64,000 nt of DNA from a phage (GCA_014816185.1 GCA_014816185.1_4095.1); one strand, 5' to 3'; positions 6,389-20,579 are shown, counted from the first letter of the stretch. Notes: generated from the letters alone by a model not told the origin. Translations and numbers: made by a program.

Positions 6389-7051
6389 ATGATGAAATCA
6401 AAATTAGGTTTGTTTTATAAAAACTATTTTGTTAAACAACGTAAATTTATAAAAAAATATTTCTCTGGTGAGAAGTCTAGTCCTATAATTTTTAAAAGAC
6501 CAAGTTATAATACTTACTTAGCTGGTGCTAAACAGTCTAAGAAATTTATTACTCTTTTAAATAAAAACAAAATTAAAGCTTCTTATGTTGAAACGAGAAG
6601 AAACTCATCAATAACTCCTGGTGATTTTATTGAGTACGGATGTTTCAATATTAAGTATAATGATAATACATACTTTATGGATATTGATTGTAATACATCC
6701 AATCTTTTTAACATTGTAGTAAATCCATTAAAACAATATAATGTTTATGGTGATTCTATTATCAAATTAATCAAAAACAAAGATGGCTTTGATTTTGAAA
6801 TAAATGTTTTAGATGATAATTTTGACGAAGTACCCGTAAACCCTGAAATCTGTGATATTTTAAACAGTTTAAAAGGTAGTACCTACAATATATCATCTGA
6901 TTTAATGTTTCAGTACTCATTAATCCATAAAGATATTGAAAAGTATATTGAATGCTCCAGAATTTTGAATTTTCTCTATGATGAATTTAAAAAGAGTTCT
7001 AAAATAACTGCATACACTTTGTACAATATTCCTAAAATGGTGAATCTTTAA
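6389..7051 (+). CDS. hypothetical protein
   Basis: 220-aa ORF, Lys/Asn-rich. Confidence 0.5.
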   Translation: MMKSKLGLFYKNYFVKQRKFIKKYFSGEKSSPIIFKRPSYNTYLAGAKQSKKFITLLNKNKIKASYVETRRNSSITPGDFIEYGCFNIKYNDNTYFMDIDCNTSNLFNIVVNPLKQYNVYGDSIIKLIKNKDGFDFEINVLDDNFDEVPVNPEICDILNSLKGSTYNISSDLMFQYSLIHKDIEKYIECSRILNFLYDEFKKSSKITAYTLYNIPKMVNL

Positions 7052-7455
7052 CAAATACAGTACTGGCAACTCCACCGTCTGTAATATATTGTCCAGTACT
7101 GTAAATTTGTATACCATCGGTTAAGTAAGTTCTGTATAAAGTTGCTGTAACATATACGTTATTCATATTCATCTCTATTGGTAGTACACATTTGGTATAG
7201 GCCGACACATCTGTTTGTGTACCTATACCCAATTGACCTGCGTTATCGCCTGTGTTATTACCAGTTGCGTAAACACCCAATGAAGTTATAATATGATTAG
7301 AAAAATATGAATAACCCAAACTCTTGAGATTCTCTACTGTACAACGTACCATCTGACATAAGGGCAAAAACTGTTGTATCAGATGAAGCTATTTTTGTTA
7401 CAGAAGGTTGTATGTTCTGTTTTGATGATGTGATAATTCTTCGAAAGGGTAGCAT
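7032..7455 (-). pseudogene. deletion/frameshift remnant of an MLPF-propeller paralog
   Basis: ATG at 7455 encodes MLPFRRII..TVFALMSDGTLYSRE (~52 aa, then stop); a second frame (track ORF 7032..7367) encodes a C-terminus ending VFVKDSPF that aligns with the 11981..13144 paralog (VFVIDSPF). Confidence 0.55.
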
Positions 7456-7527
7456 TGTATCCTCCAAATGTAAATCGTTATTATATTTAGGACAAAAAAA
7501 TGCCAGTACAAGGCACTGGCATAAAAT
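7456..7527 (-). promoter_or_regulatory. variant of the MLPF-family upstream cassette
   Basis: GCCAGT..ACTGGC hairpin, A/T-rich box and GGAGG before ATG 7455. Confidence 0.4.
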
Positions 7528-8697
7528 CTAAGCAGAAGGCATATCCTTCATCTTAATAAATGAAAATTGTGTACCAGTATTTGTGGTTTGATCAGTAAAA
7601 TATGAATTACTACCAGCCCAGTACAATTCATTATTAACTATACAATATATAACAGAACTCGAACTCTGTGAATACACACGACTTATATTTGATGGTTCTA
7701 CTCCAGTACTGAACTGAACCGAACCCAACTGTGAACTTGGTATCACATCAGTTGGTCTACCTAAACCATTAACACCAGCCCCACCACCACATGTATATAT
7801 CCCAGTACTATCAGTTGATATATTAACATAACCATTTCCAGCATTTTCAAATAGTATTTCACTGGGAACAACACCAAATCCTGTAAGATCTATTTTCCTG
7901 AATGTAGTATAAACCGTAGAACCGCCAACACCTCTTCCACCATAATCATTAGAACCAGCCATATAGATACTATATCCAGAACTTCCTAAACATAATAACT
8001 GTACGTTGTCATATAATATTTGCATAGATATAACGTTATCAGGAATACTCAATACCGTAAAAGTAGTTAAAGAAGAACTTCCAATATTACTACCAACCGA
8101 TGTTCCACATCTGTAGTACTTACCGCCCTTTATATAATGGAATGATGAACCACCTAATTTATGTGCTCCTATTGCACTTACCTCAGTATCTATGAGAATG
8201 GGAGATACAACTTTGTTATTAACACCTAACTCAGATCTACTGTTCATACCGAACCCATATAAACGACCATCTAACATCAATATTAGTGTACTACCGGAAG
8301 TACCCGCTGACGTAAATTCTATATTCTTTATTTGCGACACGTCAATACCTACAAATAATGAAGTTACTTCAGTCCAGTTAACATATGAACCACTAGCCCC
8401 AAAATATCCACCCATGTATAGACCTGCACAATATAATTTATTATCAACAGTCTTTATTAATGTACCGGATACACACGCCCAAAAATCATCAACTTCATAG
8501 GGTACATGTACCCAACCACCTAATACATCACTAGCATCCCCTGTACCTAATTTATAGTTCGAACCAGAACCACGCATGTACATATTCCCTGTACTATAAA
8601 GTAATCCGACATGTAATTGACTACCATCCAATTTCTTTATTTCAGGAAGAGTTGGTTTAATATTTCCGTACTTTAACATTCTTCCAAAAGGTAACAT
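7528..8697 (-). CDS. MLPF-propeller family protein 1 (RCC1-like repeats)
   Basis: start at internal Met MLPFGRMLKYGNIKP (8697) after GGAGG; track ORF upstream extension is translation of the hairpin; G/S/T/N-rich. Confidence 0.65.
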   Translation of the reverse strand: MLPFGRMLKYGNIKPTLPEIKKLDGSQLHVGLLYSTGNMYMRGSGSNYKLGTGDASDVLGGWVHVPYEVDDFWACVSGTLIKTVDNKLYCAGLYMGGYFGASGSYVNWTEVTSLFVGIDVSQIKNIEFTSAGTSGSTLILMLDGRLYGFGMNSRSELGVNNKVVSPILIDTEVSAIGAHKLGGSSFHYIKGGKYYRCGTSVGSNIGSSSLTTFTVLSIPDNVISMQILYDNVQLLCLGSSGYSIYMAGSNDYGGRGVGGSTVYTTFRKIDLTGFGVVPSEILFENAGNGYVNISTDSTGIYTCGGGAGVNGLGRPTDVIPSSQLGSVQFSTGVEPSNISRVYSQSSSSVIYCIVNNELYWAGSNSYFTDQTTNTGTQFSFIKMKDMPSA

Positions 8698-19226: not shown

Positions 19227-19297
19227 ATTTCCCTCCTTTATTCATTATACTATATTTAATACAAAAAGAAATGCCAGTATCAAGTACTGGCATAATA
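19227..19297 (-). promoter_or_regulatory. MLPF-family upstream cassette
   Basis: conserved element. Confidence 0.55.
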
Positions 19298-20476
19298 TTA
19301 TCGGTTAAATTTAAAATCTGTTATGTGTGTCCATGTATGATTTAATGGTGTACTCAATGGTGTAAAGCCAGCAGGGTCTGACCACGTTGAACCACATGCG
19401 TACATAAATTGATTGCCAGTACAATCCATTATAGCATAAGAACGTGTTGCTGTACCACATTTGAATCCAACTGCACTACTTGGGGTCGGTAATACTTCAA
19501 ATGTAGGTGCATTTGAAGTATTACCCCCATTTTTTGTTCCAGCTATGTACAGAACTCCATTAGTATCAATGATTAAGTTAGTCCAATATGCTTGTTCTCG
19601 ACCAGCATAAAAATATGTTAAATCACCGGGTACAAATGGTAACGTACCTTTATATAGTGTAGTATTAACATCCACTGGTGCTCCAGATACACCCCATGAA
19701 CTCATATAGTTTCTCCCACTTGCGTAGAATGTAGTTCCTTTACCGTAAAGTATTAATGATGCATGACTTGTTCGCATTGCATTATATTCAAACTCAGGAT
19801 CATCAGTAGCGTCCTTAAAAATCTGTGTCCATGTTGTTATATAGCCAGTAGTTGTAACACCCATTTGATAATAATAATTATCACCAGTAGCATAGAATTG
19901 TTTAGGGCCAGTTTGTACAATTGCATTCCTATTAGTTAACCAAAAATCTAATGTATTAGTCATGATCTTGGTGGGTGTGAAATTCGCCACGGTATTTCCT
20001 TTTCCGAAATAACCCTTAGCGTTATCTCCATGACCCCATAAATCACCATTAGTTGTGCGTAGGAATAATGTACCAGAATTGAATACAACTTTTTCTATAG
20101 TACTTATATCAATACCAACAGAAGTGTAATTCGTTGTAAAATCTTGAAAAGTACCCCAAAAATTAGATGAACCATTAAACATGACTTGACTACCAGTGTA
20201 CTTCACTTTATTATCTTTAGTGATAAGTAATGTCCCCCACGATGCCGCGAACATTAACTTAACATTTTCCATAACAAAGTATGGCTTACCGTATGCTGAC
20301 GCGGTAGAGTTCAAACCTAATAGTTGTCTATTATTACTACAACCCCATACTTCGCCGTTATCCAAAAGCATCAACATAGTAGGTTTACCAGATAATACAG
20401 ACAAAAAGAAATCTTTTGGTGTTGGTACACCAGGTGCAATATTCCCATAATCAAACATTCTAACAAAAGGTAACAT
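19298..20476 (-). CDS. MLPF-family protein 11
   Basis: MLPFVRMFDYGNIAP; body Trp/Tyr/Thr-rich and more divergent. Confidence 0.6.
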   Translation of the reverse strand: MLPFVRMFDYGNIAPGVPTPKDFFLSVLSGKPTMLMLLDNGEVWGCSNNRQLLGLNSTASAYGKPYFVMENVKLMFAASWGTLLITKDNKVKYTGSQVMFNGSSNFWGTFQDFTTNYTSVGIDISTIEKVVFNSGTLFLRTTNGDLWGHGDNAKGYFGKGNTVANFTPTKIMTNTLDFWLTNRNAIVQTGPKQFYATGDNYYYQMGVTTTGYITTWTQIFKDATDDPEFEYNAMRTSHASLILYGKGTTFYASGRNYMSSWGVSGAPVDVNTTLYKGTLPFVPGDLTYFYAGREQAYWTNLIIDTNGVLYIAGTKNGGNTSNAPTFEVLPTPSSAVGFKCGTATRSYAIMDCTGNQFMYACGSTWSDPAGFTPLSTPLNHTWTHITDFKFNR

Positions 20477-20579
20477 AATTCCCTCCTTTATTCATTATAT
20501 CATATTTACCTCCTAAAGAAAACCCTTGACACCCTTTCAGTACTGGTGTACTATAGAAGGAATATAAGGAGAACTGTAC
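20477..20579. promoter_or_regulatory. divergent promoter region (partial MLPF cassette on minus; TTGACA-17-TACTAT on plus)
   Basis: plus-strand TTGACA ccctttcagtactggtg TACTAT then AAGGAG and ATG 20580. Confidence 0.4.

What the first reader, a model, noticed from the sequence alone, without database searches (positions are those of the whole stretch)
7032..20520. Eleven tandem genes sharing one N-terminal peptide (MLPF.RM.KYGNIAP) on variable RCC1-like/beta-rich bodies: a candidate library of alternative virion-anchored or receptor-binding proteins
Eleven consecutive minus-strand genes (245-400 aa) begin with the same 15-17 residues and then diverge. Their bodies are extremely G/S/T/N/Y-rich and carry repeated G-x-N-x-x-G-Q-L-G-x-G-type motifs (GQNSNGLLGLG, GAEGQLGNGTTT, GWNSSGQHGTGNQT, GANSSGQAGNGTTT) typical of RCC1-like beta-propeller blades. 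The N-terminal codons vary at synonymous sites between copies (GGA/GGG for Gly, ATT/ATA for Ile) while the peptide is kept, so selection acts on the peptide, not only on a DNA repeat. A conserved N-terminal adaptor on diversified beta-rich bodies is the architecture of exchangeable receptor-binding proteins or of proteins targeted into the virion. I do not recall such an array from T4 itself.
Basis: partly seen in the sequence, partly recalled or inferred. Interest (0 to 1): 0.88.

Follow-up and report, generated by a model that had tools for sequence, protein, structure and literature searches.

The report
Shared docking tag on virion proteins
A giant E. coli phage carries eleven neighbouring genes for virus-particle proteins that all begin with the same 13-residue peptide and then diverge into different binding domains; the gene array was already published, but the shared peptide, which also heads unrelated domains across the whole phage group, seems not to have been described.

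Summary
Eleven minus-strand genes (7528-20476) start with MLPFxRMxxYGN. A twelfth, decayed copy lies at 7032-7455.

In both structure models the first ~19 residues are unstructured and lie outside the fold.

The peptide itself is under selection: at its conserved codons pS is 0.30 and pN 0.017. It recurs in 62 jumbo-phage genomes on RCC1, Kelch, LamG-lectin and glycine-rich bodies. Published mass spectrometry finds these proteins in phAPEC6, CBB and GAP32 virions.

Nine of the ten junctions between the genes (the 18024/18015 pair is only 8 nt apart) are a near-identical cassette of terminator hairpin, late-type promoter and ribosome-binding site. Six related genomes hold 31 body types in shuffled order.

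Best reading: a short docking peptide loads exchangeable binding modules onto the virion. The acceptor site and an external location are inferred, not shown. The array and its virion association are already published; the clade-wide tag appears undescribed.

The parts
19298..20476 (-). Tagged gene 1, 392 aa, MLPFVRMFDYGNIAP + RCC1-like propeller
18024..19226 (-). Tagged gene 2, 400 aa, MLPFGRMVKYANIAP + RCC1-like propeller; 75% identical to phAPEC6 gp002
16906..18015 (-). Tagged gene 3, 369 aa, MLPFGRMIMYGNIVP + RCC1-like propeller. Starts 8 nt after gene 2 with no cassette between them, so probably co-transcribed. This body type is present in all six genomes compared.
15696..16835 (-). Tagged gene 4, 379 aa, RCC1-like propeller
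14476..15624 (-). Tagged gene 5, 382 aa, RCC1-like propeller
13217..14404 (-). Tagged gene 6, 395 aa, RCC1-like propeller
11981..13144 (-). Tagged gene 7, 387 aa. Modelled as a seven-bladed RCC1-like propeller starting at residue 20; residues 1-19 are low-confidence and outside the fold. 82% identical to phAPEC6 gp003, which was detected in virions.
10766..11908 (-). Tagged gene 8, 380 aa, RCC1-like propeller; 84% identical to phAPEC6 gp005, which was detected in virions
9957..10694 (-). Tagged gene 9, 245 aa, MLPFGRMVKYGNKIE + glycine-rich domain (homologues carry PF21722). The model matches the Pam3 tail-fibre head and the Bxb1 tail brush and spike proteins.
8776..9885 (-). Tagged gene 10, 369 aa, RCC1-like propeller; 98.9% identical to phAPEC6 gp009, which was detected in virions
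7528..8697 (-). Tagged gene 11, 389 aa, RCC1-like propeller; 99.7% identical to phAPEC6 gp010, which was detected in virions
7032..7455 (-). Decayed twelfth copy. The start at 7455 encodes MLPFRRIITSSKQNIQP... (52 codons, 7297-7455). A frame-shifted C-terminal piece (7032-7367) is 84% identical to residues 184-298 of 121Q_234.
20477..20566 (-). Leader of the array: GTAAATATGATATAAT (late-type promoter motif) followed by AAAGGAGGG; no preceding hairpin
19227..19297 (-). Intergenic cassette: hairpin GCCAGTAC-loop-GTACTGGC with T-run, then TTAAATATAGTATAAT, then AAAGGAGGG
16836..16905 (-). Intergenic cassette (same design)
15625..15695 (-). Intergenic cassette (same design)
14405..14475 (-). Intergenic cassette (same design)
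13145..13216 (-). Intergenic cassette (same design)
11909..11980 (-). Intergenic cassette (same design)
10695..10765 (-). Intergenic cassette (same design)
9886..9956 (-). Intergenic cassette (same design)
8698..8775 (-). Intergenic cassette (same design)
7456..7527 (-). Last cassette: terminator hairpin after gene 11, then a degenerate promoter/SD (CCTAAATATAATAACG...GGAGG) in front of the decayed copy

Best explanation
The array encodes a repertoire of late-expressed, virion-associated binding modules. Each protein has three parts:
1. a 12-13-residue N-terminal peptide specific to this phage clade, M-[LI]-P-F-x-[RQI]-[MIL]-x-x-Y-[GA]-N;
2. a short, often proline-rich linker (residues ~14-19);
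3. an exchangeable globular body.
Here the bodies are ten RCC1-like seven-bladed propellers and one glycine-rich domain of the kind that forms the receptor-recognition head of small phage tail fibres.

I propose that the peptide is a docking element. It is unfolded on its own and becomes ordered on binding one common acceptor site on the particle. Any body carrying it is therefore incorporated, and the virion displays a mixed set of ligand-binding heads that aid host or surface attachment.

In Asteriusvirus, nine of the ten junctions between the eleven intact genes (the exception is the 8-nt gap between genes 2 and 3) also carry a near-identical unit of terminator hairpin, late promoter and ribosome-binding site. 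Together with the tag codons this gives about 120 bp of repeated homology at those junctions. That would let cassettes be gained, lost and reordered by recombination.

Shown:
- the tag and its selection;
- its modularity across folds and genera;
- the folds of two bodies;
- the regulatory cassettes;
- the shuffled repertoires;
- presence of orthologues in purified virions (from the literature).

Inferred:
- that the tag is the anchor;
- that the acceptor is external;
- that the bodies bind host-surface ligands;
- late timing;
- a recombination role for the cassettes.
For: Tag and selection:
- The tag is invariant while the bodies are 20-29% identical.
- At the conserved tag codons pS is 0.30 and pN 0.017.
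- The tag is conserved with different codons in GAP32, Yersinia fHe-Yen9-04, Xanthomonas XbC2, Klebsiella fENko-Kae01 and CBB. This includes arrays whose genes are 8-12 nt apart and have no per-gene promoter cassette.

Distribution:
- tblastn with the tag hits 62 phage genomes, all 310-386 kb, with 1-15 copies each.
- A degenerate DNA scan of IMG/VR finds multi-copy clusters almost only in ~350-378-kb contigs.

Bodies carrying the tag: RCC1, Kelch, RCC1+Kelch, several LamG/ConA-lectin types, glycine-rich, and unknown.

Tag outside the fold: pLDDT is 46-68 for residues 1-19 in both models, and the first strand begins at residue 20.

The same bodies occur with other N-termini in rV5-like phages. 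The LamG body is 35% identical to CBB_549 but starts MNEMLMLG. The glycine-rich body starts MLEML.

Virion presence: phAPEC6 gp003/005/006/007/009/010/549/551 (PMC7247149; mapped to four window genes); CBB_536/537/548/549/551/552/553 and GAP32 gp001 (PMC5259590).

Pointers to an external role:
- RCC1-like proteins in Listeria phage LIS04 and C. difficile phage phiCD211 sit between baseplate and tail-fibre genes.
- Charged residues make up 12% of the array proteins against 22% of other window ORFs; G/S/T/N/Y make up 47% against 28%; pI is 5.1-9.0.

Late-type promoter: TTAAATATAGTATAAT occurs 9 times, only in the array, against 0.62 expected. It resembles the motif predicted upstream of CBB structural genes, e.g. 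CTAAATATAATATA.

Terminator-like sites: 19 against 5.7 expected.

Shuffling: 31 body groups among six Asteriusvirus genomes, 11-14 per genome, in changed order.
Against: - No experiment or structure shows where these proteins sit in the particle or that the tag binds anything.
- MS peptide counts in phAPEC6 are low (1-5 unique peptides per protein).
- The published data I could read do not say whether the N-terminus is retained.
- The obvious candidate acceptor, the hair-like fibres of phAPEC6, CBB and 121Q, is doubtful. GAP32 carries at least three tagged genes (gp001, gp002 and a gp531-like gene) but was not reported as hairy, and the fENko-Kae01 paper does not mention hairs.
- phAPEC6 has an inner body whose proteins are unidentified, which leaves room for an internal location.
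- No homologue of these proteins appears by sequence in any solved virion structure.
- Late timing rests on motif resemblance only.
Confidence: 0.55

Rival explanations
1. The peptide is a capsid-targeting sequence like that of T4 internal proteins. It would direct diverse proteins into the prohead core, so that they are packaged with the DNA (perhaps forming the inner body) and ejected into the cell, for instance as decoys or inhibitors of host defences.
For: [quoted passage not shown] This is the same logic of a short shared N-terminus on unrelated bodies in a fast-changing locus.
- These jumbo phages have T4-like head genes (PMC5259590).
- phAPEC6 has an inner body of unknown composition, and its authors suggested the RCC1-like proteins for it.
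- The proteins are virion-associated at modest abundance.
- Rapid turnover of the repertoire also suits an arms race with defence systems.
Against: - There is no conserved Glu or other fixed cleavage position after the tag; several of the eleven have no Glu in their first ~30 residues.
- The fold starts at residue 20, leaving no room for a propeptide.
- All identified bodies are of extracellular-type binding folds (propellers, ConA-like lectins).
- The glycine-rich member matches external tail-fibre, brush and spike proteins solved in virions.
- The proteins have few charged residues and near-neutral pI, unlike DNA-associated proteins.
- Rigid propellers of about 40 kDa, or 75 kDa for the double propellers, would have to unfold to leave through the tail tube (inference).
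Confidence: 0.2
2. The tag is recognised by something other than a virion acceptor. Candidates are a dedicated folding or assembly chaperone, a modifying enzyme, or a degradation or timing control system. Virion association would then depend on the bodies themselves.
For: - Small tail-fibre heads of the glycine-rich type need dedicated chaperones (Pam3 gp25).
- The tag is unstructured in isolation, as expected for any linear recognition motif.
Against: - At least six unrelated folds would each need their own way into the particle, yet tagged proteins of four body classes (RCC1-like, Kelch, LamG and an unclassified one) are found in virions in three phages.
- No conserved partner gene is evident next to the arrays.
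- Chaperones for fibre heads normally bind the distal, not the N-terminal, end.
Confidence: 0.12
3. The proteins are what databases call them: RCC1-type 'DNA/chromosome condensation' proteins that organise the packaged genome.
For: - Annotations in GenBank records and PHROGs (phrog_4219, category DNA/RNA metabolism).
- The suggestion in PMC7247149.
- A true RCC1-like fold.
Against: - The name comes from the eukaryotic founder of the fold. The fold is a general binding scaffold (UVR8, RPGR and HERC2 are the closest structures).
- The same tag, locus and virion presence apply to Kelch, LamG and glycine-rich bodies that have no link to DNA.
- The proteins are not basic: pI 5.1-9.0, 12% charged residues.
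Confidence: 0.05
4. The N-terminal identity is a by-product of DNA-level processes. Either the repeated promoter/RBS cassette undergoes gene conversion that extends into the first codons, or there is a constraint on the translation-initiation region. On this view the peptide has no function.
For: - The non-coding cassette upstream is even more uniform than the tag.
- Codons 2-4 (TTA CCT TTT) are identical in all eleven copies.
- T4-type promoter-terminator cassettes are known recombination points (PMC4122927).
Against: - Synonymous sites in the conserved tag codons differ (pS 0.30) while amino acids do not (pN 0.017).
- The peptide is kept in other genera with other codons, and in arrays that lack the cassette altogether.
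Confidence: 0.03

Closest known systems
Published tandem RCC1-like 'DNA condensation' genes of Asteriusvirus phages (phAPEC6 gp001-010/549-551; 121Q_234-248; PBECO4)
   Same: This is the same locus. Four window genes are 82-99.7% identical to phAPEC6 proteins detected in virions. The tandem arrangement and the RCC1 domain were noted in PMC7247149 and PMC5259590.
   Different: Those papers treat the genes as RCC1 paralogues with a possible DNA-condensation role. They do not mention the shared N-terminal peptide, the glycine-rich member, the per-gene cassettes, or the link to the Kelch and LamG virion proteins of CBB and GAP32. CBB's authors paired only 536-537 and 549-553 by BLASTP.
T4 capsid-targeting sequence on internal proteins (IPI-III, Alt) in a hyperplastic locus
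   Same: A short conserved N-terminal peptide on otherwise unrelated proteins that end up in the virion; a rapidly changing locus (PMC3012670).
   Different: The T4 sequence is followed by a prohead-protease site and is removed (my own knowledge of T4). No such site is conserved here. The bodies here look like surface binding modules rather than small intracellular inhibitors or enzymes.
Conserved N-terminal anchor peptides or domains of exchangeable receptor-binding proteins (for example the second depolymerase of KP32-type Klebsiella podophages docking on a T4 gp10-like branching domain; CBA120 and G7C tailspike adaptors). Recalled from my own knowledge, not tested here.
   Same: A lineage-specific N-terminal adaptor on horizontally exchanged receptor-binding bodies. 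The same body types (LamG, glycine-rich) occur in rV5-like phages with a different N-terminus.
   Different: Bodies here are monomer-like propellers and lectin domains rather than trimeric beta-helix spikes. There are up to 15 clients per genome. The acceptor is unknown. The tag is only ~13 residues.
PeSL promoter-terminator cassettes of T4-like phages (PMC2839356, PMC4122927)
   Same: A composite stem-loop terminator plus promoter repeated between genes of a hypervariable region, proposed to mediate modular shuffling. Here there are 10 such units and shuffled gene content between relatives.
   Different: PeSLs carry early sigma-70-type promoters. Here the motif resembles the T4-late-like motif predicted for structural genes in CBB, and sigma-70 matches are not enriched. 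The repeated homology also continues into the coding region as the tag.
Pam3 gp24 / S16 gp38-type glycine-rich receptor-recognition heads
   Different: Pam3 gp24 docks through an N-terminal helical bundle. Here that is replaced by the MLPF peptide. Oligomeric state and chaperone are unknown.

Membership tests
RCC1-like repeat beta-propeller (PF00415/PF13540/PF25390) | RCC1 repeats detected above Pfam's gathering score | tested here: met
   In ten of eleven proteins at least one of PF00415 and PF13540 scores above its cut-off. PF25390 gives E 1e-17 to 1e-27 but stays below its 150-bit cut-off. The 245-aa protein has no hit.
RCC1-like repeat beta-propeller (PF00415/PF13540/PF25390) | Seven-bladed propeller fold | tested here: met
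   Model of 11981-13144: pTM 0.82. Foldseek top hits are UVR8 (E 5e-20, TM 0.78), RPGR, RCC1 and HERC2. Only one paralogue was modelled.
RCC1 proper (chromatin-bound Ran exchange factor; the basis of the 'DNA condensation' annotation) | Binds chromatin/DNA and a Ran-type GTPase | not testable with these tools
   No direct test. Indirectly unlikely: pI 5.1-9.0 with 12% charged residues, and the same locus holds non-RCC1 bodies.
T4-type capsid-targeting-sequence proteins | Short conserved N-terminal peptide shared by unrelated virion proteins | tested here: met
T4-type capsid-targeting-sequence proteins | Prohead-protease cleavage site directly after the targeting peptide (L/I-x-E in T4; from my own knowledge) | tested here: not met
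   There is no conserved Glu or fixed motif after the tag, and the fold starts at residue ~20. The specificity of this clade's protease is not known, so the test is indirect.
T4-type capsid-targeting-sequence proteins | Located inside the capsid and ejected with the DNA | not testable with these tools
   Only whole-virion mass spectrometry is available.
PeSL mobile regulatory cassettes | Repeated composite terminator stem-loop plus promoter between genes of a hypervariable region | tested here: met
   Ten minus-strand hairpins with T-runs (19 terminator-like sites against 5.7 expected on both strands). The cassettes are nearly identical.
PeSL mobile regulatory cassettes | The promoter is of the early, sigma-70 type | tested here: not met
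   The sigma-70 scan is not above shuffles (63 against 66) and does not pick out the cassettes. The motif resembles the late-type motif of CBB.
PeSL mobile regulatory cassettes | Insertions, deletions and swaps between close relatives end at the cassettes | tested here: inconclusive
   Gene content and order differ between six genomes cassette by cassette, but breakpoints were not mapped at nucleotide level.
Glycine-rich tail-fibre head (Pam3 gp24 / S16 gp38 type), for 9957-10694 | TNF-like sandwich plus stacked glycine-rich motifs | tested here: met
Glycine-rich tail-fibre head (Pam3 gp24 / S16 gp38 type), for 9957-10694 | N-terminal helical domain that docks the fibre to baseplate or fibre shaft | tested here: not met
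   Residues 1-19 are unstructured and carry the MLPF tag instead.
Anchor-branch receptor-binding protein systems (conserved N-terminal peptide docking on an anchor protein) | An identified acceptor domain on another virion protein | not tested
   No complex prediction was available, and no acceptor candidate was found next to the arrays.

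The most novel reading that the evidence does not exclude
Rak2-like jumbo phages have a general plug-in display system. One ~13-residue peptide is sufficient to load any protein onto a common site of the virion. Each phage then carries a combinatorial, rapidly reshuffled set of up to ~15 surface binding heads (propellers, lectins, glycine-rich adhesins). 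rV5-like phages would run a parallel system with a different peptide (M-x-E-M/L-L) on the same body types.
Probability: 0.4. Interest if true: 0.8.

Novelty: new variant of a known kind. Interest (0 to 1): 0.6.

Why it matters
It would give a function to the most conspicuous gene family of these giant coliphages. That family is currently annotated, probably wrongly, as 'chromosome condensation' proteins.

It would also tie together virion proteins that proteomic studies of CBB, GAP32 and phAPEC6 listed separately.

A short peptide sufficient for incorporation into a 350-kb phage particle would be a practical handle for displaying foreign proteins, comparable to the T4 targeting sequence or Hoc/Soc display.

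If the bodies are adhesins, the shuffled repertoire is a host-range or environment-sensing determinant. That is relevant to the therapeutic use of these phages, and it is directly testable with tag-fusion and shaving experiments.

Tried and rejected
- A strict back-translated tag pattern in IMG/VR found only 121Q itself. A looser pattern was needed. Its single-copy hits in small contigs (L020, L023/L032, L030/L044) look like chance.
- Profile searches of the PDB by sequence with the glycine-rich, LamG and RCC1 alignments found no phage virion structure.
- The sigma-70 promoter scan was not enriched and missed the cassettes, so a host-type promoter was rejected.
- I looked for peptide-level mass-spectrometry data to see whether the N-terminus survives in virions. 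The CBB supplements give proteins only, and nothing usable is held for fENko-Kae01.
- Full-text searches for 'MLPF', and reading the phAPEC6, CBB, 121Q (PMC5646251), jumbo-phage comparative (PMC7824862) and 2026 review (PMC13282480) papers, found no mention of the tag.
- I considered that the N-terminal strand is the 'velcro' closure of the propeller. I rejected this because the tag is outside the modelled fold and also sits on non-propeller bodies.
- I considered the hair-like fibres as the acceptor and did not adopt it. Tagged genes also occur in GAP32 and fENko-Kae01, which were not reported as hairy.
- There are no tRNA genes in the window.

Full report
**What is there**

A six-frame motif search finds exactly eleven ORFs in the 64-kb window that begin M-L-P-F-x-R-M-x-x-Y-[GA]-N. 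All are consecutive on the minus strand between 7528 and 20476. The proteins are 245-400 aa. An alignment of the ten long ones shows bodies only 20-29% identical, while M1 L2 P3 F4 R6 M7 Y10 N12 I13 P15 are invariant.

A twelfth copy follows the last gene. It has its own terminator, a degenerate promoter and a start at 7455 encoding MLPFRRIITSSKQNIQP..., but stops after 52 codons. The C-terminal ORF at 7032-7367 is in another frame and matches residues 184-298 of 121Q_234 at 84%.

**Where the window comes from**

Megablast places the region in the Asteriusvirus jumbo coliphages (121Q, PBECO4, slurp01, SP27, phAPEC6, G17; ~350 kb). There these genes are annotated 'regulator of chromosome condensation' or 'putative DNA condensation protein'. 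No record covers 80% of the 13.6-kb array, which was the first sign that its content varies between relatives.

**The bodies**

In ten of the eleven proteins at least one RCC1 repeat family (PF00415 or PF13540) scores above Pfam's cut-off. A model of 11981-13144 (pTM 0.82) is a seven-bladed propeller whose nearest solved structures are UVR8, RPGR, RCC1 and HERC2 (Foldseek E 5e-20, TM 0.78).

In Pam3 the matched part (TNF-like plus glycine-rich domains) is proposed to recognise the host, and a separate N-terminal helical domain docks the fibre to the baseplate (PMC9608196).

**The tag is a separate module**

In both models residues 1-19 have low confidence (pLDDT 46-68), and the fold starts with a strand at residue 20. 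So the tag is not the closure strand of the propeller.

Between paralogues the conserved tag codons differ at synonymous sites (pS 0.30) but hardly at non-synonymous ones (pN 0.017).

The same peptide, with other codons, heads proteins in other genera:
- Cronobacter phage GAP32: gp001, gp002 and a third, gp531-like gene;
- Yersinia phage fHe-Yen9-04: five genes;
- Xanthomonas phage XbC2: eleven consecutive genes;
- Klebsiella phage fENko-Kae01: thirteen genes;
- Pectobacterium phage CBB: at least twelve genes.

In several of these the genes lie 8-12 nt apart with no promoter between them. A tblastn with the tag alone hits 62 phage genomes, all 310-386 kb, with 1-15 copies each, and none of the RaK2/K64-1 type. 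A degenerate DNA pattern finds further multi-copy clusters in uncultured ~350-378-kb IMG/VR contigs.

The bodies behind the tag include RCC1 propellers, Kelch propellers, RCC1+Kelch double propellers, several LamG/concanavalin-like lectin types, the glycine-rich domain and small unknown domains. An alignment of thirteen LamG-type members has only M1, P3, F4 and one glycine (nearly) invariant.

Two of the body types occur in rV5-like ~150-kb phages with a different N-terminus. The LamG body is 35% identical to CBB_549 but begins MNEMLMLG. The glycine-rich body begins MLEML or MFEMM. That is what one expects if the N-terminus is a lineage-specific adaptor and the bodies are exchanged horizontally.

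**Virion association**

This comes from published proteomics, not from my tools. ESI-MS/MS of phAPEC6 particles detected gp003, 005, 006, 007, 009, 010, 549 and 551 (PMC7247149). Four window genes are their orthologues: 7528-8697 = gp010 at 99.7%, 8776-9885 = gp009 at 98.9%, 10766-11908 = gp005 at 83.8%, and 11981-13144 = gp003 at 82.5%.

In CBB seven tagged proteins (536, 537, 548, 549, 551, 552, 553) were found in virions, and GAP32 gp001 likewise (PMC5259590). Those authors did not connect these proteins beyond two BLASTP pairs. No paper I could search mentions the peptide.

**Regulatory cassettes**

Nine of the ten junctions between genes are a 70-78-nt unit that is almost identical from copy to copy. 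It consists of a hairpin GCCAGTAC-loop-GTACTGGC with a T-run, then TTAAATATAGTATAAT, then AAAGGAGGG a few bases before the ATG. The exception is the 18024/18015 pair, 8 nt apart.

Terminator-like sites number 19 against 5.7 ± 2.8 in shuffles. Sigma-70-like sites are not enriched. The 16-mer occurs nine times, only in the array, against 0.62 expected.

It closely resembles the motif that CBB's authors found upstream of structural genes and compared with the T4 late promoter, for example CTAAATATAATATA. I therefore infer late transcription, gene by gene. No expression data exist.

In keeping with that, the tagged genes of six Asteriusvirus genomes fall into 31 groups at 70% identity. Each genome has 11-14 of them, with insertions, losses, replacements and changes of order.

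**Interpretation**

I conclude that the peptide is a recognition element that brings diverse binding modules into the virion. The most likely version is docking to one common acceptor site on the outside of the particle, so that the phage displays a mixed, quickly evolving set of ligand-binding heads.

The external reading rests on four points:
- the tail-fibre-head fold of the glycine-rich member;
- the lectin and propeller nature of all other bodies;
- a composition typical of phage adhesins and unlike DNA-binding proteins: 12% charged residues against 22% elsewhere in the window, 47% G/S/T/N/Y, pI 5.1-9.0;
- the position of RCC1-like proteins among baseplate and tail-fibre genes in unrelated Listeria and C. 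difficile phages.

The acceptor is unknown. The hair-like fibres of phAPEC6, CBB and 121Q, whose proteins are unidentified, are a candidate. However, tagged genes also occur in GAP32 and fENko-Kae01, for which hairs were not reported.

**Rivals**

The main rival is a T4-style capsid-targeting sequence that loads the proteins inside the head. T4 provides an exact precedent for diverse proteins sharing only a short N-terminal signal (PMC3012670), and phAPEC6 has an inner body of unknown composition. Against it, there is no conserved cleavage position after the tag, no room for a propeptide, and the bodies are of the wrong kind.

The database reading ('DNA condensation') is name transfer from the eukaryotic founder of the fold. 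It does not fit the composition or the non-RCC1 members.

A purely DNA-level explanation for the identity is excluded by the synonymous variation and by conservation across genera without the cassette.

**Novelty**

The tandem RCC1-like array and its presence in virions are published. What appears new:
- the clade-wide peptide that unites RCC1, Kelch, LamG and glycine-rich virion proteins into one system;
- the peptide's position outside the fold;
- the tail-fibre-head nature of the glycine-rich member;
- the per-gene late cassettes;
- the size of the shuffled repertoire.

In kind it is a variant of known adaptor or targeting logic, not a new category.

Noticed in passing
window 20804-25382, + strand: Directly upstream of the array lie about twenty tandem, paralogous ORFs of 59-78 aa, interrupted by an unrelated 219-aa ORF at 22579-23238. 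They follow the pattern M-x-x-x-(K)-E-(F/Y)-Y ... Y-x-x-(V/I)-L-x-L-I. They correspond to 121Q_249-265. This is a second, unrelated multigene family of unknown function.
   Followed up: partly
L009:2459-3109 and L009:10001-10693 (rV5-like E. coli phage contig, 149,946 bp); also P0018-P0048, P0075 (PVP-SE1 protein 19): In rV5-like ~150-kb phages the LamG-type and glycine-rich bodies start with a different shared N-terminus (MNEMLMLG, MLEMLTVG, MLELL, MFEMM). This suggests a parallel tag system in another phage family.
   Followed up: partly
L007 (fENko-Kae01) 5589-19802; L008 (CBB) 5067-10335: In both phages with annotated terminal repeats, the tagged-gene array ends a few hundred bases from the boundary of the direct terminal repeat. 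It is also transcribed opposite to the surrounding early-type genes, as in the window, where the flanks are + strand and the array is - strand.
   Followed up: no
L001 (phAPEC6 MK817115.1) locus 18659-19393, 19465-20655, 23175-24284, 25573-26715: Four intact tagged ORFs (244, 396, 369 and 380 aa) are not annotated in the phAPEC6 GenBank record. If they were also missing from the protein set searched in the published proteomics, they could not have been detected there. The glycine-rich gene is represented only by a 303-bp 'gp004'.
   Followed up: partly
L006 (XbC2) 5481-6647 and 8927-9553; L005 (fHe-Yen9-04) 2284, 4572, 5713: There is a second tag variant, MLPFPIISNT(N/K)I, which lacks the Y-G-N part. 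It occurs on RCC1-like and small bodies alongside the main variant in the same arrays. The decayed copy in the window (MLPFRRIITSSK) resembles it.
   Followed up: no
window 26487-26582: A short imperfect tandem repeat (16/24-nt unit, AGATGGCTAAACGTCT-like, 3-6 copies) lies in the ORF-poor stretch 25.4-27 kb, between the small-ORF family and the next gene block.
   Followed up: no
L027:1903-3930, L029 (start 8416), L043 (start 140), L006:359-2425: Some relatives have 667-688-aa tagged proteins that combine an RCC1-like propeller and a Kelch propeller in one chain.
   Followed up: partly
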